From a virus, in the UHGV virus genome UHGV-0142489: a stretch of DNA of 16,164 bases; one strand, 5' to 3'. Position numbers and translations under genes: made by a program. The notes under the pieces were generated by a model, which saw only the letters and a program-made list of their open reading frames with translations, was not told the DNA's origin and ran no database searches. The stretch's first letter is position 1; every line of letters begins with the position of its first letter. Positions 1 through 16,164 of this stretch are shown one piece after another.

Positions 1-140
1 TGATTGAAATCAAAATAACGATGGGTTTATTATTACCAAAATGGTAAATTTACAACCCATTCCCATTGTGCCATAGTAATCGGGCACTGGCAAAATCCAG
101 TGCCGGGATTGGCGTCCTGGGTTACTACAGAGGCACATAT

Positions 141-160
141 GCCGCATAAGCGGTTTTTTT
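141..160 (+). terminator. Weak candidate intrinsic terminator at the extreme 5' end of the window
   Basis: 4-bp GC stem ccgc(142-145)/gcgg(150-153) with ataa loop, followed by seven consecutive T (154-160). The stem is short, so this is weak; it would end a transcript arriving from upstream of the window. Confidence 0.3.
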
Positions 161-313
161 ATGTGTAAAGCGCACCTATTCTATGGTGGGCTGTGTGGGG
201 GCACCGAAAGGTGCGCCGGGTCCTTTGTAGCCGGTTACGCCAACCCTGCACAGTTCACCACCAACCGATTGGCGTCGGTAGTGGTGATTAACCTAACTAC
301 AAAGGTGATCACT

Positions 314-1000
314 ATGAGTGCTAACGTAACCCCATCTGTTTTTCATTTTGAATCAGAAGCAACCATTCGAGCCATTGTTATTGATGGAAATCCTTGGTTT
401 GTTGCCAAAGACGTTATTAAAGCTCTTCAACTGACAAACCCCACTATGTCAATAAAATCTCTTGATGATGATGAAAGGGCTAAATTTAACTTAGGCCGTC
501 AAGGCGAAACCAATATTATCAACGAGTCAGGCCTCTACACACTGATCCTCCGCTGCCGCGACGCAGTGACACCAGGCACTATCCCCTACCGCTTTCGTAA
601 ATGGGTTACAGGTGAGGTTCTTCCTCAGATCCGCCGCACCGGAAGTTACATTAAAAACTCGCTCCCGCAGGAAGAACGCATAAAGATGGTTGCCGACCAG
701 GTAGCCAACGCCACAGCATCAGCAGTGATGCAGGCAATCAAGATAGAGAACAAAACCTACAGCGCCCCACTGAAGCCCGGCTACCGCAGCCTGATTCACT
801 CGCCGTCTGGTGTTCTCGGCCTGACGGAAAACTCACTGCTGATGAATCTGCTGAACCAGTTACAGGAAGACGGGCACGATGTATCGGGCGCGGCGGCGGA
901 GCTGACCACCATGTTCTGTTACATCGTTGGTGTGAGCAAATGCCTGCGTGATATCCAGACGCACGCGGAGTACATCAACGACAAGGCAGGGTTCTTCTGA
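314..1000 (+). CDS. Bro-N domain protein (phage antirepressor / KilA-type family), 228 aa
   Basis: ORF-track frame 161..1000 trimmed to the ATG at 314, which has an AAAGGTGA Shine-Dalgarno at 301-308 with a 5-nt spacer. The N-terminal ~110 aa (FHFESEATIRAIVIDGNPWFVAKDVIKAL ... GLYTLILRC ... RKWVTGEVLPQIRRTGSY) fit the Bro-N domain pattern, which normally starts within the first 10 residues. The C-terminal half is not recognised. Confidence 0.8.
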   Translation: MSANVTPSVFHFESEATIRAIVIDGNPWFVAKDVIKALQLTNPTMSIKSLDDDERAKFNLGRQGETNIINESGLYTLILRCRDAVTPGTIPYRFRKWVTGEVLPQIRRTGSYIKNSLPQEERIKMVADQVANATASAVMQAIKIENKTYSAPLKPGYRSLIHSPSGVLGLTENSLLMNLLNQLQEDGHDVSGAAAELTTMFCYIVGVSKCLRDIQTHAEYINDKAGFF

Positions 1001-2788: not shown

Positions 2789-2815
2789 TTAAAAACAAGG
2801 CCGCGAAAGCGGCCT
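2789..2815 (-). terminator. Intrinsic terminator closing the minus-strand virion operon
   Basis: Perfect 7-bp GC-rich stem AGGCCGC/GCGGCCT with GAAA tetraloop (plus-strand 2798-2815). On the minus strand the hairpin is followed directly by TGTTTTTAAC. It lies 9 nt downstream of the TGA stop of the 98-aa gene (2824-2826). Confidence 0.65.
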
Positions 2816-2823
2816 GTGACATG

Positions 2824-3120
2824 TCACGTTCCTTTTCTGAATGATAGCCGTTCGAAAAATGATGACATTCCACCGCAGACAATAGCAAAGATGATCCCAC
2901 CAAAGAAGAGAAGGCCAGCCTGCCACCACTCCCACCGCCATACATCCACAGCACCAACCATACCAACAATCGCTCCAACAAATGGAATATAGCTCACGAT
3001 GAAAGCAATGGGGGCTGCAATTATCCAGTGCAATCCCCACCATGATTCAAGCCCAGCCATAATTGCTGCCAACTGAAAAAGGCCAACGACGATATAAACA
3101 ATGAATCCTATCGCTTGCAT
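2824..3120 (-). CDS. Small integral membrane protein, 98 aa, three TM helices (holin-like topology or exclusion/immunity protein)
   Basis: ATG at 3120 with AGGTGA Shine-Dalgarno. Three hydrophobic helices separated by Trp-rich loops (ESWWGLHW, DVWRWEWWQ) and a short basic C-terminal tail (ERLSFRKGT). Last gene before the operon terminator. The two overlapping alternative-frame ORFs in the track were not chosen. Confidence 0.7.
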   Translation of the reverse strand: MQAIGFIVYIVVGLFQLAAIMAGLESWWGLHWIIAAPIAFIVSYIPFVGAIVGMVGAVDVWRWEWWQAGLLFFGGIIFAIVCGGMSSFFERLSFRKGT

Positions 3121-3132
3121 GTAGTCACCTAT

Positions 3133-3306
3133 TTACCCAGTAAAAATCAGAGGCCTCCCCTCAATAAGGCTTGCAACAAGAACTATTCCCTGCACAACAA
3201 AGATGAACCAGCAAATAGCTTGAGTCTGAGGGTTAAGAAAATATTTGTAGCGGTCAATAAATAACAACCCACCAGAAATTATCACACTCAAAATAATTAA
3301 AAACAC
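3133..3306 (-). CDS. Possible small two-TM membrane protein, 57 aa (not in the supplied ORF track)
   Basis: My own translation of the minus strand: GTG at 3306-3304 preceded by AAGGAAG, reading (M)FLIILSVIISGGLLFIDRYKYFLNPQTQAICWFIFVVQGIVLVASLIEGRPLIFTG and ending at TAA 3135-3133. No ATG is present in the frame, and AT-rich DNA gives hydrophobic codons by chance, so confidence is low. Confidence 0.3.
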   Translation of the reverse strand: MFLIILSVIISGGLLFIDRYKYFLNPQTQAICWFIFVVQGIVLVASLIEGRPLIFTG

Positions 3307-7598: not shown

Positions 7599-10108
7599 TG
7601 CGGAATATCTCCGGAGAATCTCTGACGCTTCTGTGTCAGATCAAGAACAACAGGAGAACCATCATCTTTCAGCAGATAACCAGTACCAAGTTTCACCAGG
7701 TACTGACTATCGCCGTAACTTTGCAAACCATACTGACCAGGCGGTGTTTTTATCCCGGTGCCGACCACTTGTTCATTCCAAGCCTGATTAACCTGCTTAT
7801 CGAATTGCTCTGCAGACATTCCCCACGGCAAAAGGACATTCCCCATTCCGTTATAGTCATGCACGCCACCTGTAGCTACGTTAACAGCCTGCTTCCAGAT
7901 ATCAGTGTCAATTTCGCCTGATATCACGCCTTTTTTCGCCATCACACCAGCGTAATAGTCCTTTGCGATCTCGTATGCCATTGATGCCCCCTGAGCATCA
8001 CCAGCAAATGCATCCTTCACCATGTCAGAAAACTCAAGGCGAAGATCAGCATCTTTAGGCATCGGAATACCTTTCGCATCATCAGTACCTTTACGAGCCG
8101 CCGCGCCAGTAAGAATTGTCTGCGCAGCGGTTTCAGGAGACACGGAAACATCCGGATTAAACCAGTTTTTTTCTGCCAAAATACCACCAGGCTTGTCCAT
8201 CAGTATCCCGGCAACGGCAGCAGATGGAGCGTTGGCACTGATCTGCTGTAGTGCTGACATATACACCTGCCCACCACCAGTGCTCTGCCTGATGGTATCG
8301 AGATATGCTGCCTGTTGGGAAACTGGAGCATCACGAAAGAAAACACCGATCTGATTGGCCTCGTCTTTGGAAAAGAACGTCAGTGGAGTGCCATATGACT
8401 TAGCAAGGTCACTGACCTGAGCAGCACGCAAGGCAACGCTCTGTCCAAAGTTATCCTTATTGCTCATGTCGATAGGCTTTGCCTGTCCGGCGGCAAGAGA
8501 GAACTGTACAGGATCAGCCTGTCGCTGCTTTATCACCTGACTTGCAGCCGACACAACGTTGTCATAAAGAGCGGCTCGTGCCGCATAACCCTCCCCTGTC
8601 TCACCAGTATCCGGGCGTAATTGCTCAACATATGCTGTAATGCTGCTTGTCGGCATGTTGCGGAAAGAGCCTATATACTGTCCGGCGATTTGCGTATTTC
8701 TGAACTCGGTATATCGCAGGTTTCCTTCTCTGACTCCATAAGCTGCAATAAAATCAGCCTCACCAGGTGGGTTAGGAAATTCAACGCCCCGCATATACGC
8801 AGCTGTCGCATCGCGAACCTTGCTGTCAATCATCGTTTTATATTCAGCCTGCTGCTGCCGACGCAGTTGATCCGCCTGTCGCATAAAACTTGCCTGCGCC
8901 TCAGGAGATGCCGCATCGAATGCTGCATTACCGGTATAGCGTTTGGTGTTGGTTGGAATTGTTGATAAACCAAGTGCTGCACTGACACCAGCAGTTAACT
9001 GCTGATCACTGTATGGCTGGCTACCGTTCTCATGATGGATAATGGCTGCACAAAGCGCCTTCAGGGTATCAGGATTTGATGCATCGAGAGGCTCATCAGC
9101 AGAAACGCCAAGTTGTTCGCACACTGCTTTGATATACGACATAGTGTCATTTTTATCAGTAGGCGGTGCCCAGCGATTAATTATCTCGCTGACGGTATCA
9201 ATACCCTGCCGCTGATACGACATCAGGTTCCGCCCTAATGCACGAATCCCGTGTTCAGGTGTTTCGAATTTAGCAAATCTACCATCATCACCGGTCTGGC
9301 CTACCCACGGATTAGTTTTGCTGTATTCGAGATTTCCGGGGTTATTGTTGCGTATGCCACGGACACGCTCGGAAGAGCCACTATCTGTTACAGCACGGCG
9401 AGCTCCAGCAGCAGTATCACTTAACTCGCCATTACTTTGGATGAATGCGGTCGCATTGTTTGCCGACCACTGGGACAATGCTGCATCAGCAACCTTCTCT
9501 TTAAACTCGATTTTCTTGGTCTGTATTTGCTCGTCGCTCCAGCCATGTGCAGCACCGTACTCCTCAATTTGCTGGAAAGTTTGCTTATTAGCCAATACGT
9601 ATGCGGCATTGTCGCCATACAATGCTGCGGCATTTTTACCATTGTTCAGCAGCGTCGCCTGAAACTGACCTTCTTCGTAGGCATTAATTTGCCCTATCTC
9701 GTGCCGCCCGGCCTGCGTAGTGAACTGAATGCGCTGCTGCTGCGCCTGCTGCATGAAAGCATTACGAGCCTGTTCATCCGGCAGCGACATAGCCAGTTGT
9801 TCGACCTGAGCATCAAACTGCTGCGTATACTCATGGCCTTTTCCAATAGCATTTTTCCCTTTCAGGTTAAGCAAACCTGTTTCAGGGTTATTCAGCAGAT
9901 CACTGCTTATCTGACTGAGGTTAAGAGATGCCTCCTGAGCCAGAGCGATATTGGCACGCTGTTTTGCCTGCCCCAAAACATCAATTGCCTCTGTCCCTGC
10001 CCGAACAAAAGCATCACCAATACCTGGCTGAGAAAACGTCTGCAAGCCTGCTGACTGAACTCCACGGCTCTCAACCTGGCGTCCGGATACTGTTGGTACG
10101 ACTGGCAT
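7595..10108 (-). CDS. Large internal virion protein, 837 aa
   Basis: ORF-track frame 7595..10183 trimmed to the ATG at 10108, which has GGAGG 6 nt upstream and overlaps the TAA of the upstream gene by 1 nt (TAATG). The longer form would overlap the upstream gene by 76 nt. Contains a conserved-looking block GIRNNNPGNLEYSKTNPWVGQTGDDGRFAKFETPEHGIRALGRNL (residues ~250-295). Confidence 0.75.
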   Translation of the reverse strand: MPVVPTVSGRQVESRGVQSAGLQTFSQPGIGDAFVRAGTEAIDVLGQAKQRANIALAQEASLNLSQISSDLLNNPETGLLNLKGKNAIGKGHEYTQQFDAQVEQLAMSLPDEQARNAFMQQAQQQRIQFTTQAGRHEIGQINAYEEGQFQATLLNNGKNAAALYGDNAAYVLANKQTFQQIEEYGAAHGWSDEQIQTKKIEFKEKVADAALSQWSANNATAFIQSNGELSDTAAGARRAVTDSGSSERVRGIRNNNPGNLEYSKTNPWVGQTGDDGRFAKFETPEHGIRALGRNLMSYQRQGIDTVSEIINRWAPPTDKNDTMSYIKAVCEQLGVSADEPLDASNPDTLKALCAAIIHHENGSQPYSDQQLTAGVSAALGLSTIPTNTKRYTGNAAFDAASPEAQASFMRQADQLRRQQQAEYKTMIDSKVRDATAAYMRGVEFPNPPGEADFIAAYGVREGNLRYTEFRNTQIAGQYIGSFRNMPTSSITAYVEQLRPDTGETGEGYAARAALYDNVVSAASQVIKQRQADPVQFSLAAGQAKPIDMSNKDNFGQSVALRAAQVSDLAKSYGTPLTFFSKDEANQIGVFFRDAPVSQQAAYLDTIRQSTGGGQVYMSALQQISANAPSAAVAGILMDKPGGILAEKNWFNPDVSVSPETAAQTILTGAAARKGTDDAKGIPMPKDADLRLEFSDMVKDAFAGDAQGASMAYEIAKDYYAGVMAKKGVISGEIDTDIWKQAVNVATGGVHDYNGMGNVLLPWGMSAEQFDKQVNQAWNEQVVGTGIKTPPGQYGLQSYGDSQYLVKLGTGYLLKDDGSPVVLDLTQKRQRFSGDIPQ

Positions 10109-11117: not shown

Positions 11118-13594
11118 CAGAATCCCCCAACAGTAAGGCGAGGAATAACGGCAAGAACAGACAGCGGCAACGGGTCAAGCTGACGGATTTTTACACGTCC
11201 GTTTTTGCCCCAGTTACTGTCCAGTTTCACTTCTACTTTTCCGGTAGCATCATCAACAGGATCATCGTAGAACTCGAATTCACGCTGTGGATATTCGTAC
11301 CATTTACCGCCAGGCGTAGTCGCCCAGATGCCGCGACTGGCGTTGACCACTAGTGTCACGGTATTGATCAGCTGTTTCTTATCGAGCAGCGTCTCCTGCC
11401 CGTTAATATTGATGTCCAGGGTTTCAAACTGGGCGTTAATCGGCAGTCCGATGTGGACCACGGCGCCGGGTTTCTCCAGCGTAACGGCGCCGCCGGTGAC
11501 GACTTTCTGCGGCTCTACGCTGGCGTCAGACAGTACATTCACGGTCTGTCCTTCGAGGTGATCGAGTCCGGCGAATGTCTGGCGGGCCATGTACCAGTTA
11601 GTGGTGGCGGTATTGCGCAGGGCAGGAGGAATATTCCGGTTGGCTGTGACGGTTACCGAGTTGCCGCTTTCAACCGAAATAATGTCGCAGCGCAGCTGCA
11701 TGGCAACGGCGCTACCATCTTCAGGATCGGTTCCTGTGTAGGGGAACTGGATCTGTGCGCCGACGTCTCCTGCGGTAAAATAGCTGGCCCCGCTCATCGT
11801 CAGGGTATACGGCACCTGATAACTCCAGTCCCCGCTTCCACCGGTTATAGTCGCCGCCCGGCTGCCGGTGTTGCGTCCGTCATAGGTCAGTCCGCTGTCG
11901 ACAAAGAAAGCGTCAAGGTCATCGGTGAACTGGCGGCTTGCCAGCCTCTCGATATAGCGTTTCGTCTGGCCGTTGATAGTGCGGTTAACCACGAAATAGA
12001 TCGCATCCTCGCTGCCTTCACTGATACCGCAAGTGCTCTCATATTTCCCGGCGCTGGATTGCGGAGACCAGGCGAAAACCTGCTGATCGCGCAGATAGGT
12101 CAGCACCAGCAATTTTCCATCATCACGCACGCAGAACGCGCTGGAGAACGGGACAATACAAAACGCCCAGTCGACAATGCTGCGCTTCTGGAAAAGGTGA
12201 TTAGCAAGGATTGTCAGGTCGTTGCCCTGGAATCCATCCACATCAAACGAGTAGGCCAGATCCCGCACGACGCTGCCCTTCTCCTGGATAAAGAGCGCGA
12301 TATTCGAAACTGCGATAGGTGGGACATCGCTGCAGCCGTTTGAGCCCTGAGAACTCAGGGAGAATGCAGAAGGCGTAAGCACTTTATTCTGGTCACCGGT
12401 CACAACAAACTCACCGCCGGAGGTCAGAACAACCAGCGATCCAACATCGATAAGGTGGCGAATTTCGTTAACCTGCCGGCCAGCGTAGGTATAAACGATC
12501 CTGTCATCGTCCTGCGTCGGGTTACTCTTGCCGAAGTCTTTATAGTCACCGGTACGGCTGGCCCAGATGGTTTGCGGATAGGCAGGGGATGCAGCGAAGT
12601 ACAGCCTCTGCTGGTAGTAGACGACCGTCGCCGGATAGCCATTGACGCTGTTCCACGCATAGCGTGCCCACTTGTAGCTGGCCTTGTCAGCCCCGACAAC
12701 GTTCTCAGGGATACGAGAAACCACATCAGCGGTTGCAGTCAGGCCGTCACCGGCGACGGCAGTGATCCGCACAATGCCAAAACCACTATGCAGGTATTCC
12801 CACTGCACGCCTGTATCATCATCGCCGGTTCCGCCCCAGCCATCCCACGCCATACCTTCGGTGTGTGATGGGCGTAACGTCCCGGTTTTTCCTTCGGTAT
12901 TGGCGCGATAGTAGTTGCTGTCGGCGCGCCGGATATCCTCGATCGATGTGCTCTTGCTGGTTTCCCATACTGGTACAGAGTCAACGGCTGGCTGCTCGAG
13001 GTAGAACAGCTTTCCGACCTGCTCGGCGCCGAATATTGCAGAGCTCGAGGTCAGAGTGATTGTGCCAGTAGTGGCGCTGGCCCAGACAGTTTTGGACTCG
13101 TCGACATTGATATCTTCAAACGGGCCGTTAGTTGTCTGCACATCGACGATCTGCCAGTTGTCATGCGCATACCGGCGCAATTCTTTAGGCGGATAGGACG
13201 GGTGCACGATCGTCATCACATCGGCGCTTTGGGTGAATTTCAGGCCGAAAACATCATTTTCTGTATAAGGTGTCGCCAGCTCGTAGATTACATTGCCGGT
13301 GGTCAGCACCAGGCCGCCGTCTTTGATGACGCGCATGTAATTGTGGCCAAACTCCAGCGCATAGGTCTGCACCGTCGAAAACTGGAAAGGGATAAGGCGG
13401 CATTTGCGATCCGGGTATTTCGCCGCGGCGATGAACTGCGTGCCCGGGCGGTTCTCTACCCCGCCATACTGCCGCACGATAAAGTTATCGCACTTGCGCA
13501 GCGCCACCTGGTACTTGGCCATATCGATGCGGCCATAGAGCGATGGAGCAATTTCTCCACCTGAGAAGCTCGGTTGTATCCAGCTAACAGCCAT
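11117..13594 (-). CDS. Tail tubular protein B (T7 gp12-like), ~825 aa
   Basis: The N-terminus (SWIQPSFSGGEIAPSLYGRID ... GGVENRPG) follows the pattern I remember for T7 gp12, and the size is close to gp12 (~800 aa). It follows the tubular protein A gene directly. Start set at ATG 13594 (1-nt TGATG overlap with the upstream stop); the track's GTG at 13600 is the alternative. Confidence 0.8.
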   Translation of the reverse strand: MAVSWIQPSFSGGEIAPSLYGRIDMAKYQVALRKCDNFIVRQYGGVENRPGTQFIAAAKYPDRKCRLIPFQFSTVQTYALEFGHNYMRVIKDGGLVLTTGNVIYELATPYTENDVFGLKFTQSADVMTIVHPSYPPKELRRYAHDNWQIVDVQTTNGPFEDINVDESKTVWASATTGTITLTSSSAIFGAEQVGKLFYLEQPAVDSVPVWETSKSTSIEDIRRADSNYYRANTEGKTGTLRPSHTEGMAWDGWGGTGDDDTGVQWEYLHSGFGIVRITAVAGDGLTATADVVSRIPENVVGADKASYKWARYAWNSVNGYPATVVYYQQRLYFAASPAYPQTIWASRTGDYKDFGKSNPTQDDDRIVYTYAGRQVNEIRHLIDVGSLVVLTSGGEFVVTGDQNKVLTPSAFSLSSQGSNGCSDVPPIAVSNIALFIQEKGSVVRDLAYSFDVDGFQGNDLTILANHLFQKRSIVDWAFCIVPFSSAFCVRDDGKLLVLTYLRDQQVFAWSPQSSAGKYESTCGISEGSEDAIYFVVNRTINGQTKRYIERLASRQFTDDLDAFFVDSGLTYDGRNTGSRAATITGGSGDWSYQVPYTLTMSGASYFTAGDVGAQIQFPYTGTDPEDGSAVAMQLRCDIISVESGNSVTVTANRNIPPALRNTATTNWYMARQTFAGLDHLEGQTVNVLSDASVEPQKVVTGGAVTLEKPGAVVHIGLPINAQFETLDININGQETLLDKKQLINTVTLVVNASRGIWATTPGGKWYEYPQREFEFYDDPVDDATGKVEVKLDSNWGKNGRVKIRQLDPLPLSVLAVIPRLTVGGF

Positions 13595-14199
13595 CAGCAC
13601 ATCCTCGCTACGGTAAACGGATCGTCAGGCATTTGCGGTTCCTGCGATTCGTTCATGCTGTGAGAGCCAGCGCTGAGGATGATCCGGCTATACATGCTCA
13701 GGGCATTATTGCCAAGGTCGGCATTACCCGTGAGAACCATGTTAATAGCCGCGGCCAGGCGCCAGGATAGAGCCTCCTGGAAGATGGAATCGAACATGTT
13801 CACGTCGGTGATGCGGGCAACATACCGAAGCCAGGCCTGCGGCAGATCGGTGTAAATCAGGCGCCCCGTGCCGGCGCTGTCCGCGCCGACCACGTACTGC
13901 ACGCGCATAGCAGCCGTCGGATACCGTACGCCAGGCAGCGGGATCTCAATAATACGGAGGCAGTCAGTGGGATAGGTATACGCATAATCCCAGTCCTGCG
14001 GCGGGTTATTGGTGTCAGCCAGCGCGATATTCTTGGTCGCAAAATTCCAGTCAAAATCGGCCAGGACAGCATCACGAATCGACTCGTAATACAGGGAGCA
14101 TTGCCCGGCTTCTTTGCTGGCTTCCTCCAGGCTGTTGATGCTCCGGTTATTACCGATGTTGCTCAGCGCCCGGTTGCAGATCTCAATGACAGAGGCCAT
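13594..14199 (-). CDS. Tail tubular protein A (T7 gp11-like), 201 aa
   Basis: Size ~200 aa; N-terminal ICNRALSNIG...SINSLEE, a central DFDWNF block and C-terminal EALSWRLAAAIN parallel the T7 gp11 pattern as I remember it. Lies immediately upstream of tubular protein B. ATG at 14199 overlaps the upstream TAA (TAATG). Confidence 0.8.
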   Translation of the reverse strand: MASVIEICNRALSNIGNNRSINSLEEASKEAGQCSLYYESIRDAVLADFDWNFATKNIALADTNNPPQDWDYAYTYPTDCLRIIEIPLPGVRYPTAAMRVQYVVGADSAGTGRLIYTDLPQAWLRYVARITDVNMFDSIFQEALSWRLAAAINMVLTGNADLGNNALSMYSRIILSAGSHSMNESQEPQMPDDPFTVARMC

Positions 14200-14522
14200 T
14201 ACTCGCCCCCTTCACCGTAAAGCGTCTGCGCCGCCGTCTTCGGTGCCTCACCTGAAACAGGTGCCAGCGCCATATCGGTGATTTGCAGATCCGCGCTGCG
14301 GAAAGTGCCATCGTCGCCTTCACGCGCCGAAATACCCTTAATCACTGCTTTTGCGGTGATCATCACCTCAGTGCCTACATTCTGTGGCTGCGCTTTCAGC
14401 TTGTTCAGGGTGTCATTGTTCAGCGTGATGCACAGCCCCCACGGATATTCGTCGCGGGTTTTGGTCTGGCCGCTTTCATCCTGGTAGCTGTCGGTGCCGG
14501 TTTTGAGATTGACCATTTCCAT
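14199..14522 (-). CDS. Hypothetical small virion protein, 107 aa
   Basis: ATG at 14522 with GGAG 6 nt upstream. First gene after the inter-module hairpin and translationally coupled to the tubular A gene. Acidic and hydrophilic. Confidence 0.65.
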   Translation of the reverse strand: MEMVNLKTGTDSYQDESGQTKTRDEYPWGLCITLNNDTLNKLKAQPQNVGTEVMITAKAVIKGISAREGDDGTFRSADLQITDMALAPVSGEAPKTAAQTLYGEGGE

Positions 14523-14530
14523 AGAACGCT

Positions 14531-14557
14531 CCTACAAGAAAGGGGCCGAAGCCCCCT
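14531..14557 (-). terminator. Candidate partial intrinsic terminator / RNA-stabilising hairpin between head and tail gene blocks
   Basis: GC stem GGGGC/GCCCC with CGAA loop (plus-strand 14542-14555). On the minus strand it is followed by TTTCTTGT, and it sits between the stop of the 113-aa gene (14573) and the ribosome-binding site of the 107-aa gene. Comparable in position to terminator T-phi after the capsid gene in T7. Confidence 0.45.
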
Positions 14558-14572
14558 GGTTTATTCTGAGGC

Positions 14573-14914
14573 TCAGACGCCTAAATCTTTTCGCTTTTCG
14601 TCGATCTTCTCGCGCAGCGTTTCGGCTTTGGTGTTGTGATGCGGCTTCTCGTTAAAGAGCAACTCGTACTCTTCGCGGAGCTTATCCAGCTCGTCATCGC
14701 CACCACCGCCTTCGTTCAGCGGCTCAGGTTTAACAACAGCAGGAGCCACAACCTTTTGCGTTGCCTTCGCCTTTGCTTCCTTCGCCGCTTCGTTCAGCGG
14801 CTCCAGCGCCGAGCCAGGCACCCCGTCATACTCAATCTCTGAACCCTCCGGCCAGAGGTTGTTATGGATATGGGACAGACGCAGCACGCGGTATTTTGCT
14901 TTTTCAGCTGACAT
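14573..14914 (-). CDS. Hypothetical charged protein, 113 aa (K/E-rich with a GGGG linker)
   Basis: ATG at 14914 with a strong AAGGAG 5 nt upstream. Highly charged low-complexity C-terminal half (EAAKEAKAKATQK ... NEGGGGDDELDKLREEYE ... REKIDEKRKDLGV). Located in the head gene block. Confidence 0.7.
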   Translation of the reverse strand: MSAEKAKYRVLRLSHIHNNLWPEGSEIEYDGVPGSALEPLNEAAKEAKAKATQKVVAPAVVKPEPLNEGGGGDDELDKLREEYELLFNEKPHHNTKAETLREKIDEKRKDLGV

Positions 14915-14924
14915 CGATATCTCC

Positions 14925-15368
14925 TTAGCCGGTCACTTTAGAGCGGGTCGGGTACAGGGTATTCGCATCAACGTCCAGGTTGATACCGGAGGTGAACGCG
15001 CCAGCAGTCAGCGGGCCGGTGGCTACGGAGTAGTTCACACGCAGATAGCGCTGAACGCCCGCCGGTACCTTCGCCGACACAACGCGCTTACCAGCTTTAA
15101 GCGCTGCCAGAGCCAGGGGGCCGCTGTCATAAATGGTCGTCCAGGTGCTGTTGTCAGGACTGGTCTGCAACTGCACGTTGACGGTAGCGGCGCCAGCAGC
15201 GGTAGCCGTGGTGTTAACGAGAGCCCAGAACTCCAGCGGATAACCAACGCCGATATCACGGCGGGTGCCGTCGACAGGCGCCAGGTCAATCACATCGGTA
15301 GAAGCAGCAGTAGCCGTAACCGCCTGCGCTTCGGAGAACATCAACAGTTTGTCGAGGATCATCTTCAT
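14925..15368 (-). CDS. Small beta-rich virion protein, 147 aa (possible capsid decoration / cement protein)
   Basis: Directly downstream of the capsid gene. Thr/Ala/Val/Gly-rich composition typical of beta-sandwich head accessory proteins. GGAG lies only 2 nt from the ATG at 15368, so the ATG at 15362 may be the real start. Confidence 0.65.
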   Translation of the reverse strand: MKMILDKLLMFSEAQAVTATAASTDVIDLAPVDGTRRDIGVGYPLEFWALVNTTATAAGAATVNVQLQTSPDNSTWTTIYDSGPLALAALKAGKRVVSAKVPAGVQRYLRVNYSVATGPLTAGAFTSGINLDVDANTLYPTRSKVTG

Positions 15369-15415
15369 TTCTCCATTTAGCAGCCCGTTACCGGGCCGCT
15401 GGTTATAGTCAGGGG

Positions 15416-16164
15416 TTAAACCACGCGAGCTTCAGTTTCCAGAAGCGCATCGGTTTCGCGAATCGGAACGCCGCGGAAACTGGTCCACCAATCGCCTTCA
15501 GTCTCTTTGACGCTAATCGCCAGAGAGGATTTCTCCAGAGATTGCAGATCAAGAGCCTGGGCAACAGTGCGGTTCATGTAGAACACCGGGCGCCCCATGC
15601 CACGGTTAGGGATGCGATGCAGCGCTTTCACCATGAGCTTGGCGATGTTTGCTGCCGCAGCAGGATCGGACAGGTCGCTGATATCGATGTTCGCGATGCG
15701 GACAACGTAGCGCCAGTCGCGCAGGCACAGGCCGTTATCCCACTTATAGTGGGTGCGGTAGCCTTCATACTGGCCGCCGCTGGCATCTTTCAGAGTCTGC
15801 TGGCCTTTATCTTCCATCTGCAGACCTGCTTTCTGGCCTTTCGGGAAGATACCGTGAACGGTGTTTTCGCCCCATACAATGAGCCAGATTGAAGTGTTAT
15901 CGGTGCCAGTACCGCCGGCGTCGATAATGTTTTGCGCGTTGGTAGCCGTCAGGTCGGAGTAGCGAGAAGACAGGCCCATGAACTGCTGCGGGTTAACGCT
16001 GGAGTCGCCATAAAAAAGCGTTTGAGCCATCTGCTGATTCATCGCCTCGAGGAAAGCGCGATCTTCTGACAGCCGAAATTCAGCGGTATTTCCGTTCAGA
16101 TCTGCCAGAGATTTATCAATCTCCGCATAGGTTTCCAGCATGCCAATGCCATCGGTAACCTGCA
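15416..16164 (-). CDS. Probable major capsid protein, C-terminal ~249 aa (5' end lies beyond the window)
   Basis: The open frame runs to the window edge without a credible start; the M at 16141 in the track is internal. It is the first gene of the head-tail block and has a composition consistent with an HK97-fold coat protein. The call rests on position and general character only. Confidence 0.6.
   Translation of the reverse strand, partial: QVTDGIGMLETYAEIDKSLADLNGNTAEFRLSEDRAFLEAMNQQMAQTLFYGDSSVNPQQFMGLSSRYSDLTATNAQNIIDAGGTGTDNTSIWLIVWGENTVHGIFPKGQKAGLQMEDKGQQTLKDASGGQYEGYRTHYKWDNGLCLRDWRYVVRIANIDISDLSDPAAAANIAKLMVKALHRIPNRGMGRPVFYMNRTVAQALDLQSLEKSSLAISVKETEGDWWTSFRGVPIRETDALLETEARVV

What the first reader, a model, noticed from the sequence alone, without database searches (positions are those of the whole stretch)
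14531..14557. Hairpin plus T-tract between the head genes and the tail genes, resembling T7 terminator T-phi in position
A GC stem with a CGAA loop followed on the coding strand by TTTCTTGT sits only ~20 nt upstream of the next start codon. That fits a leaky terminator or RNA-stability element that lets head proteins be made in excess over tail and core proteins.
Basis: partly seen in the sequence, partly recalled or inferred. Interest (0 to 1): 0.35.

Follow-up and report, generated by a model that had tools for sequence, protein, structure and literature searches.

The report
Conserved leaky terminator hairpin before gp10
The hairpin and T-run are real and conserved, and look like an ordinary leaky transcription terminator in the late operon of an epsilon15-like prophage; the matching site is already annotated in phage epsilon15, and it sits before a capsid-decoration gene, not at the head/tail boundary.

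Summary
All structural genes here lie on the minus strand. The RNA reads A-GGGGGC-UUCG-GCCCCU-U (14557..14540), followed by the run UUUCUUGU, the ribosome-binding site AGGAG and the ATG at 14522. The window is an epsilon15-like (Uetakevirus-type) temperate podophage.

The hairpin lies between homologues of epsilon15 gp9 and gp10. gp10 is the capsid decoration ("staple") protein (PDB 3J40_N, E=6e-20). The first tail gene, gp11, starts one gene further on.

On a terminator discriminant, only two sites on the 16-kb coding strand score above zero: this one and the operon-end terminator. Shuffled sequence gives 0.016 such sites per strand.

A hairpin plus T-rich tract sits 18-23 nt before the gp10 ATG in all 56 distinct relatives examined, across four clades. 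The loops vary and one stem pair has a compensatory change.

RefSeq already annotates a "rho-independent terminator" at this spot in epsilon15.

My best reading is a partial intrinsic terminator for host RNA polymerase that also protects the 3' ends of upstream capsid-module transcripts. No transcript mapping exists, so how efficiently it terminates is unknown.

The resemblance to T7 T-phi is only loose. Novelty is low.

The parts
14540..14557 (-). Stem-loop A-GGGGGC-UUCG-GCCCCU-U. The core is 5 G-C pairs (14555..14542), extended by a G.U and an A-U pair. The loop is UUCG (14550..14547).
   Evidence: Sequence. RNAfold gives -9.6 kcal/mol for the core and -12.4 kcal/mol for the 7-bp form. In 26 distinct hairpin cores from relatives, the six pairs nearest the loop always form.
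14534..14541 (-). U-rich tract UUUCUUGU immediately 3' of the GC core. Its first two U also close the extended stem.
   Evidence: Sequence. In 56 distinct relatives the 8 nt after the GC core hold 4-8 T, mean 5.7.
14529..14533 (-). Ribosome-binding site AGGAG of the gp10 homologue, 6 nt before the ATG at 14522.
   Evidence: Sequence. AGGAG or GGAG is conserved in all relatives. Tyrion annotates a ribosome-binding site at the equivalent place.
14573..14914 (-). Upstream gene: homologue of epsilon15 gp9 (113 aa, function unknown). Its stop codon TGA is at 14575..14573, 17 nt before the GC core.
   Evidence: phrog_590, E=8e-53.
14199..14522 (-). Downstream gene: homologue of epsilon15 gp10, the capsid decoration ('staple') protein (107 aa).
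   Evidence: PDB 3J40_N, E=6e-20. Pfam PF21628 Gp10-like, E=2e-47.
13594..14199 (-). First tail gene (gp11 homologue, similar to T7 tail tubular protein A). The real head/tail boundary is at 14199, where its ATG overlaps the gp10 stop codon.
   Evidence: phrog_394 'tail protein', E=2e-80, and phrog_9239 'tail tubular protein'.

Best explanation
This is a Rho-independent (intrinsic) terminator-type hairpin for host RNA polymerase. It lies on the coding strand of the late structural operon of an epsilon15-like temperate podophage, in the 50-nt spacer between gp9 and the capsid-decoration gene gp10.

Proposed mechanism (inferred, not shown):
1. As RNA polymerase transcribes UUUCUUGU, the short and very stable G/C hairpin with its C(UUCG)G loop forms in the exit channel. 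It releases a fraction of the transcripts just upstream of the gp10 ribosome-binding site.
2. The remaining polymerases read through and express gp10, the tail genes gp11-12 and the internal/ejection proteins. No promoter-like site follows the hairpin, so termination must be partial or overridden.
3. Released or processed transcripts end in a hairpin that shields the portal-protease-capsid-gp8-gp9 message from 3' exonucleases.

The net effect would be more and longer-lived mRNA for the upstream capsid module than for the downstream genes. gp10, which is needed in high copy, would be compensated by a strong AGGAG ribosome-binding site preceded by a U-rich leader.

The element is the orthologue of the stem-loop already annotated as a rho-independent terminator between gp9 and gp10 of epsilon15.
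For: - Anatomy: GC stem, 4-nt loop and 6 U in the 8 nt after the core, on the coding strand, 17 nt after the gp9 stop codon.
- Rarity: it is one of only two sites with discriminant d>0 on the 16-kb coding strand. The other is the operon-end terminator at 2814..2799. Shuffles give 0.016 such sites per strand.
- Conservation: all 56 distinct upstream sequences (140 loci) carry a perfect GC hairpin and T-rich tract 18-23 nt before the gp10 ATG. The sources are phages and prophages of Escherichia, Salmonella, Klebsiella, Enterobacter and Citrobacter, a clade typified by a Pantoea prophage, and Pseudomonas. gp10 protein identity falls as low as 43-50%. 50 of the 56 score d>0.
- Stem under selection: the loop varies (UUCG, UUAG, UCAG, GGWU, GGUC, AUUC, UUUC) while the stem always pairs. 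L144 has a compensatory G-C to A-U change, and Buttiauxella has a C-G to U.G change.
- The T-tract is specific to this hairpin. In the enteric and Pantoea-type relatives, the other conserved hairpin of the operon, after the capsid gene, lacks one.
- Relatives of the Pantoea-type clade carry textbook versions: GGGGCC-GGUU-GGCCCC followed by 7-8 U, d=35-42.
- RefSeq NC_004775.2 annotates 'rho-independent terminator' stem-loops at 7647-7686, between gp9 and gp10.
- No promoter-like site occurs on the minus strand between the hairpin and 11706.
- Precedent: terminators after capsid genes in T7 and LUZ100 (PMC10134795).
Against: - No RNA 3'-end or expression data exist for any phage of this group. 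Termination, and its efficiency, are inferred.
- The stem is short (5 GC pairs) and the U-tract is interrupted. The discriminant score is only just positive (d=4.6) and the formula was recalled from memory.
- A terminator directly in front of gp10, a protein needed in roughly capsid-protein amounts, does not fit a simple stoichiometry argument.
- The hairpin keeps a near-constant distance to the gp10 ATG (18-23 nt) while its distance to the gp9 stop codon varies (about 4-25 nt). This could instead point to a role tied to gp10 translation.
- Very strong versions upstream of essential genes in the Pantoea-type clade imply either tolerated attenuation or an unknown anti-termination mechanism.
Confidence: 0.62

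Rival explanations
1. It is a pure RNA-stability or processing barrier. The hairpin does not release RNA polymerase to any useful degree. It blocks 3'-to-5' exonucleases after endonucleolytic cleavage downstream, so the upstream capsid-module segment of the polycistronic mRNA outlives the tail and internal-protein segment.
For: A second conserved hairpin with clear covariation but no U-tract sits after the capsid gene at 15399..15380. Intercistronic hairpins that are not canonical terminators are therefore selected in this operon. The C(UUCG)G loop maximises hairpin stability for a short stem.
Against: A stability barrier does not need a U-tract, yet 4-8 T in the 8 nt after the stem are kept in all 56 distinct relatives. 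They expand to 7-8 consecutive U in the Pantoea-type clade. The capsid hairpin shows that the spacer between a hairpin and a ribosome-binding site need not be T-rich.
Confidence: 0.17
2. It is a translation element for gp10. The hairpin locks upstream sequence into a compact structure, and the U-rich single-stranded leader acts as a landing site for ribosomal protein S1 (a standby site). This would give the decoration protein the high, insulated translation it needs.
For: The stem end keeps a near-fixed distance to the gp10 ATG (18-23 nt) while the distance to the gp9 stop codon varies. A strong AGGAG follows directly. gp10 is a high-copy capsid protein (copy number from my own knowledge).
Against: Escherichia phage EC.W1-9 has lost gp10 but keeps the hairpin, U-tract and ribosome-binding site in front of the low-copy tail gene gp11. 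Distant high-GC relatives have a gp10-like gene with no such hairpin. The fixed distance equals the minimum space for a U-tract, a ribosome-binding site and a spacer, so it may simply reflect compaction.
Confidence: 0.12
3. It is a bidirectional or antisense terminator. Its main job would be to stop transcription entering the structural operon on the opposite strand.
For: epsilon15 annotates terminators on both strands at this spot, and its hairpin is flanked by AAAAGC and GCUUUU. 13 of 56 relatives score d>0 on the antisense strand.
Against: In this window the antisense side reads CUGGUUUAUU and scores d=-37. Most relatives are also negative on that strand. No gene or promoter-like site on the plus strand nearby needs terminating.
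Confidence: 0.04
4. It is a chance GC palindrome with no function.
For: The loose consensus scan finds 26 terminator-like sites in the window against about 16 expected, so short hairpins near T-runs are common.
Against: The stricter score is reached 0.016 times per shuffled strand. The element is kept in all 56 distinct relatives across four clades while the flanking spacer diverges.
Confidence: 0.02

Closest known systems
Stem-loop annotated as 'rho-independent terminator' between gp9 and gp10 of Salmonella phage epsilon15 (RefSeq NC_004775.2, 7647-7686)
   Same: It has the same flanking orthologous genes and the same position, about 20 nt before the gp10 ATG. It shares the GGGGC...GCCCC stem core followed by a T-rich tract.
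   Different: The epsilon15 version is longer (AAAAGC-C-GGGGCC-AUUC-GGCCCC-GCUUUU) and is annotated on both strands. The window version is shorter, has a UUCG loop and is terminator-like on the coding strand only (antisense d=-37). Neither has been tested experimentally, as far as I could find.
T7 terminator T-phi, and the terminator after the major capsid gene of T7-like phages such as LUZ100 (PMC10134795)
   Same: It is a hairpin with a U run inside a head-to-tail-to-internal-protein gene order that is syntenic with T7. Downstream lie a gene similar to T7 tail tubular protein A, a large tail protein and internal virion proteins. All of these depend on read-through.
   Different: It is not directly after the major capsid gene, because gp8 and gp9 intervene. 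It is not directly before the tail gene, because gp10 intervenes. It presumably acts on host RNA polymerase rather than a phage single-subunit polymerase, since no gene in epsilon15 is annotated as an RNA polymerase. The stem is far shorter than that of T-phi (from my own knowledge of T-phi).
C(UUCG)G extra-stable tetraloop hairpins in phage T4 intercistronic regions (Tuerk et al. 1988, from my own knowledge)
   Same: It is a short GC stem closed by C-UUCG-G in an intercistronic spacer of a phage late operon.
   Different: The tetraloop identity is not required here. Relatives have UUAG, UCAG, GGWU, GGUC, AUUC or UUUC loops.
Intercistronic stabiliser hairpins that set differential mRNA segment stability, such as the Rhodobacter puf operon and the malE-malF REP element (from my own knowledge)
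   Same: It is a stable hairpin between cistrons whose products are needed in different amounts. This operon has two such hairpins, at 15399..15380 and 14557..14540.
   Different: Those elements lack a U-tract and are not terminators. The element studied here has a conserved U-tract.

Membership tests
Rho-independent (intrinsic) terminator of bacterial RNA polymerase | GC-rich stem of at least about 5 bp with a short (3-8 nt) loop | tested here: met
   The core is 5 G-C pairs, or 7 bp with the G.U and A-U pairs. The loop is 4 nt. The energy is -9.6 to -12.4 kcal/mol.
Rho-independent (intrinsic) terminator of bacterial RNA polymerase | U-rich tract immediately 3' of the stem on the transcribed strand | tested here: met
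   UUUCUUGU has 6 U in 8, with the first three consecutive. The tract is conserved at 4-8 T in 8 nt in 56 relatives.
Rho-independent (intrinsic) terminator of bacterial RNA polymerase | Intergenic position downstream of a stop codon, on the same strand as the genes | tested here: met
   It lies 17 nt after the gp9 TGA (14575..14573), on the minus strand like all the structural genes.
Rho-independent (intrinsic) terminator of bacterial RNA polymerase | Positive score on a terminator discriminant, and rare in shuffled sequence | tested here: met
   d=4.6, ranking second on the strand. 16 sites with d>=0 occurred in 1000 shuffles. The formula was recalled from memory (d'Aubenton-Carafa type), so the absolute threshold is approximate.
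Rho-independent (intrinsic) terminator of bacterial RNA polymerase | RNA 3' ends in the U-tract and reduced downstream transcription | not testable with these tools
   No transcript-mapping data for this group of phages were found.
epsilon15 gp9-gp10 terminator stem-loop (orthologous element) | Flanked by orthologues of gp9 and gp10 in the same order | tested here: met
epsilon15 gp9-gp10 terminator stem-loop (orthologous element) | Same distance to the gp10 start codon and a shared stem core | tested here: met
   The stem end lies 19 nt from the ATG here and 23 nt in epsilon15. The GGGGC/GCCCC core is shared.
epsilon15 gp9-gp10 terminator stem-loop (orthologous element) | Bidirectional (annotated on both strands in epsilon15) | tested here: not met
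   The antisense strand in the window scores d=-37; the tail there is CUGGUUUAUU.
T7 T-phi-type late terminator | Immediately downstream of the major capsid gene | tested here: not met
   The capsid gene ends at 15416. gp8 (15368..14925) and gp9 (14914..14573) intervene.
T7 T-phi-type late terminator | Immediately upstream of the tail tubular protein A gene | tested here: not met
   The next gene is gp10, the capsid decoration protein. The gp11 homologue starts at 14199.
T7 T-phi-type late terminator | Acts on a phage-encoded single-subunit RNA polymerase | tested here: not met
   No gene in the complete epsilon15 genome is annotated as an RNA polymerase. The window itself covers only part of the phage.

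The most novel reading that the evidence does not exclude
The element may be more than a simple attenuator. Together with the covarying hairpin after the capsid gene that lacks a U-tract, it would bracket gp8-gp9 and form a two-step system of segmental stability and termination. The very strong versions in the Pantoea-type clade (7-8 U, d=35-42) lie upstream of essential tail genes. That would imply that late transcription in epsilon15-like phages is made terminator-resistant by a still unidentified phage factor. The hairpin would then act as a checkpoint that keeps unmodified polymerase, for example leaky transcription in lysogens, out of the genes for tail and ejection proteins, including the ejection protein with a cell-wall-cleaving (lytic transglycosylase) domain.
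Probability: 0.12. Interest if true: 0.45.

Novelty: already known. Interest (0 to 1): 0.14.

Why it matters
The practical value is modest. It marks a likely transcript boundary inside the late operon of epsilon15/phiV10-type phages, which are used as E. coli O157 reporter phages. That bears on where to insert reporter genes, and on how expression of the capsid, decoration and tail proteins might be balanced. It does not open a new question. The kind of element is textbook, and the orthologous site is already annotated in the type phage.

Tried and rejected
- Rfam search of the whole window (gathering threshold) and of 14400-15500 (permissive E-value): nothing at the hairpin.
- RNAalifold on the MAFFT alignment of 28 upstream regions gave a meaningless consensus (-1.55 kcal/mol). 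The aligner shifted the clades with 6-bp stems by one column. I replaced it with a loop-centred pair count in Python.
- Literature search for transcript mapping or terminator assays in epsilon15, phiV10, ZX5 or Uetakevirus found none. The epsilon15 genome paper (Kropinski 2007, PMC2698709) is not held, so the published basis of the RefSeq terminator annotation could not be read.
- I tested whether epsilon15 encodes a recognisable Q-like antiterminator next to its late-operon terminator. gp49 has no Pfam hit and matches only a generic 'transcriptional regulator' PHROG. There is therefore no support for, and no exclusion of, anti-termination.
- A local weak hairpin that sequesters the gp10 ribosome-binding site appears in the MFE fold. 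It is not conserved in relatives, so I dropped it.
- Whole-spacer folding energy is not unusual (z=-0.5 on the coding strand, -0.26 on the other). The signal is the specific hairpin plus T-tract and its conservation, not overall stability.

Full report
**What is in the sequence.**
From 3316 to the right-hand end of the window, all long ORFs lie on the minus strand. Read on that strand, the finding's region is:

...GGCGUC UGA(gp9 stop, 14575..14573) GCCUCAGAAUAAACC A-GGGGGC-UUCG-GCCCCU-U UCUUGU AGGAG CGUUCU AUG(14522).

- The core stem has five G-C/C-G pairs (14555..14542). A G.U and an A-U pair can extend it to 14557..14540.
- The T-tract UUUCUUGU (14541..14534) runs directly into the ribosome-binding site AGGAG (14533..14529).
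- The hairpin folds at -9.6 kcal/mol (core) to -12.4 kcal/mol (extended) and appears in the MFE and centroid structures.
- The 71-nt spacer as a whole is not unusually stable (z=-0.5).

**Is it more than chance?**
The simple consensus scan is not informative: it finds 26 terminator-like sites against 15.9 +/- 5.0 expected. I therefore scored every perfect hairpin on both strands with a d'Aubenton-Carafa-type discriminant. This combines hairpin energy per nucleotide with a position-weighted T score. I recalled the formula from memory, so the zero threshold is approximate, but the ranking does not depend on it.

- On the coding strand only two sites in 16 kb are positive: 2814..2799 (GGCCGC-UUUC-GCGGCC followed by UUGUUUUU, d=10.6), at the end of the structural operon, and the hairpin under study (d=4.6).
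- In 1000 dinucleotide-preserving shuffles of that strand there were 16 sites with d>=0 in total, and 8 shuffles reached d>=4.5.
- On the plus strand the same hairpin scores -37, so in this window it is terminator-like in one direction only.

**What the surroundings are.**
The window is 97% identical to Klebsiella phage ST11-OXA245phi3.2. It is 76-78% identical to Enterobacter phage Tyrion, Escherichia phages phiV10 and TL-2011b, and other members of the genus Uetakevirus.

| Window coordinates (minus strand) | Gene | Evidence |
|---|---|---|
| ..16141-15416 | major capsid protein | phrog_212 |
| 15368-14925 | gp8, Bbp16-type cement protein | PF21190 |
| 14914-14573 | gp9, function unknown | |
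| 14522-14199 | gp10 | |
| 14199-13594 | gp11, similar to T7 tail tubular protein A | |
| 13600-11117 | gp12, tail | |
| further downstream | internal virion proteins gp13-gp17 | |

The 107-aa product of the gene immediately after the hairpin matches chain N of PDB 3J40 (epsilon15 gp10) at E=6e-20 over its full length. It also matches Pfam 'Gp10-like'.

gp10 is the epsilon15 capsid decoration protein. It binds as dimers at two-fold axes and is dispensable for maturation and infectivity (PMC7602432). The hairpin therefore sits inside the head module, one gene before the head/tail boundary.

**Conservation.**
I collected the region upstream of gp10 from several sources:
- 11 annotated phage records;
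- 11 prophages in bacterial genomes: Scandinavium, Kluyvera, Pseudocitrobacter, Erwinia, Buttiauxella, Pseudescherichia, Superficieibacter, Pantoea, Pseudomonas and two Citrobacter;
- about 120 IMG/VR contigs.

The 140 loci that could be used give 56 distinct 75-nt upstream sequences. Every one has a perfect GC hairpin with a 4-nt loop whose stem ends 18-23 nt before the gp10 ATG. It is followed by 4-8 T in the next 8 nt, mean 5.7. 50 of the 56 score d>0.

Four forms occur:

| Clade | Hairpin and tract |
|---|---|
| Enteric | GGGGC-UUCG/UUAG/UCAG-GCCCC-UUUNUU |
| epsilon15 and Citrobacter | AAAAGC-C-GGGGCC-AUUC/UUUC-GGCCCC-GCUUUU |
| Clade typified by the Pantoea prophage | GGGGCC-GGWU/GGUC-GGCCCC followed by up to 8 U (d=35-42) |
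| Pseudomonas | GGGGC-UUCG-GCCCC-UUUCUU |

In a loop-centred register, the six pairs nearest the loop form in all 26 distinct hairpin cores.
- Pair 2 is G-C in 17 cores and C-G in 9.
- Pair 5 is G-C in 25 and A-U in 1 (L144, GGAGGCC/GGCCUCC, a compensatory double change).
- Pair 1 becomes U.G in Buttiauxella.

The spacer between the gp9 stop codon and the hairpin varies in sequence and in length (about 4 to 25 nt). Very distant high-GC relatives, with a gp10-like gene at 44-51% identity over 65 residues, have no such hairpin. Escherichia phage EC.W1-9 has lost gp10 but keeps the hairpin, T-tract and ribosome-binding site directly before gp11.

**Already annotated.**
The RefSeq record of the type phage epsilon15 (NC_004775.2) carries two 'stem_loop: rho-independent terminator; transcriptional termination' features at 7647-7681 (-) and 7664-7686 (+). 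These lie exactly between gp9 and gp10. It is the only internal terminator annotated within the gp3-gp18 structural operon, and another closes that operon after gp18. The window shows the same two-terminator layout. I found no experimental mapping of transcripts for any phage of this group, and the epsilon15 genome paper could not be retrieved.

**Mechanism.**
The best-supported reading is a partial intrinsic terminator for host RNA polymerase. No gene in the epsilon15 genome is annotated as an RNA polymerase.

- A fraction of transcripts would end in the U-tract, just short of the gp10 ribosome-binding site.
- The rest continue into gp10, the tail genes and the internal-protein genes. These have no promoter-like site of their own and are mostly translationally coupled through overlapping stop and start codons.
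- The hairpin would also protect the 3' end of the upstream portal-protease-capsid-gp8-gp9 message.

What is shown: the anatomy, the statistical rarity, the strand specificity and the purifying selection on stem and T-tract. What is inferred: that termination occurs, that it is partial, and what it does to protein ratios.

The T-tract is the key discriminator against a pure stability element. The operon's other conserved hairpin, after the capsid gene (15399..15380), shows abundant covariation. In the enteric and Pantoea-type relatives it is followed by UAAAUGGAG-type sequence with only 2-3 T.

Points against a simple 'heads over tails' rationale:
- gp10 is itself a high-copy head protein.
- The hairpin's distance to the gp10 ATG is nearly fixed. 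This leaves room for a contribution to gp10 translation, with a U-rich leader in front of a strong ribosome-binding site.
- The strong versions in the Pantoea-type clade raise the possibility of anti-termination. I found no evidence for it: epsilon15 gp49 is only a generic 'transcriptional regulator'.

**Comparison with known elements.**
- It works like, and meets every sequence-level criterion of, a Rho-independent terminator.
- It is orthologous to the annotated epsilon15 gp9-gp10 stem-loop, although unlike that one it is not bidirectional here.
- It resembles T7 T-phi only in the broad sense of a hairpin with a U run inside a T7-like order of capsid, tail-tube and core genes. It fails the positional criteria: it is not adjacent to the capsid gene or to the tail gene. 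It also presumably acts on a different polymerase. For comparison, the T7 and LUZ100 arrangement is described in PMC10134795.
- Its C(UUCG)G loop recalls the T4 intercistronic CUUCGG hairpins (from my own knowledge). However, loop identity is not conserved among relatives.

**Verdict.**
It is an ordinary, previously annotated kind of element. It is wrong about the head/tail position and only loosely right about T-phi. Interest is low.

Noticed in passing
window 15380-15399 (minus strand): A second conserved intercistronic hairpin, GCGGCCCG-GUAA-CGGGCUGC (-16.2 kcal/mol), lies between the major capsid gene (stop codon at 15416) and the gp8 (Bbp16-like) start at 15368. It has no U-tract and ends 5 nt before the GGAG ribosome-binding site. 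Enteric and Pantoea-type relatives keep a hairpin there with quite different stem sequences: phiV10 GUGGGUC/GACCCAC, Tyrion UGGGCC/GGCCCA, L059 GCCGCUCG/CGGGCGGC, L129 GCGGGGC/GCCCCGC, L016 ACGGGCUGG/CCAGUCCGU. This is real covariation. The Pseudomonas clade has a version followed by UCCUUUCU, and epsilon15 has only a 4-bp remnant. It is probably an mRNA 3'-end stabiliser for the capsid message.
   Followed up: partly
window 2799-2814 (minus strand): This is the best-scoring intrinsic terminator on the coding strand: GGCCGC-UUUC-GCGGCC followed by UUGUUUUU, d=10.6. It closes the structural operon after the small ORFs at 3306..3133 and 3120..2824. This matches the terminator annotated after gp18 in epsilon15.
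   Followed up: partly
window 84-265 and 161-1000 (plus strand): Rfam hits above the gathering score were found for the isrK Hfq-binding sRNA (84-160, 72 bits) and the C4 antisense RNA (179-265, 79.5 bits). They lie directly in front of, or overlap the 5' end of, an Ant anti-repressor gene (161-1000; phrog_130, E=3e-57). This is a P1/P7-style c4-ant immunity module inside an epsilon15-like prophage. The plus-strand terminator-like site at 141-154 is the 3' end of isrK.
   Followed up: partly
L011 (Escherichia phage EC.W1-9, PP445227.1) 2626-2690: This Uetakevirus-like phage lacks the gp10 decoration gene entirely. The conserved hairpin, T-tract and AGGAG are retained and now sit directly before gp11.
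   Followed up: partly
L128-L138 (IMG/VR contigs of the clade typified by the Pantoea prophage L019), about 20-45 nt upstream of position 3001: The orthologous hairpin is much stronger there: GGGGCC-GGUU-GGCCCC followed by 7-8 consecutive U, d=35-42. Yet it lies upstream of essential tail genes in the same operon. This raises the question of whether late transcription in these phages is terminator-resistant.
   Followed up: no
window 14573-14590 (minus strand) and equivalents in relatives: The bases just after the gp9 stop codon (UGA/UAA-GCCUC) are conserved across the enteric clade and can pair with the last gp9 codons (GGC...GCC, 3-4 bp around the stop codon). The Pantoea-type clade has a different small hairpin (UCGGU-CUCUG-ACCGG) over its stop codon. 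The pairing is too weak to judge.
   Followed up: no
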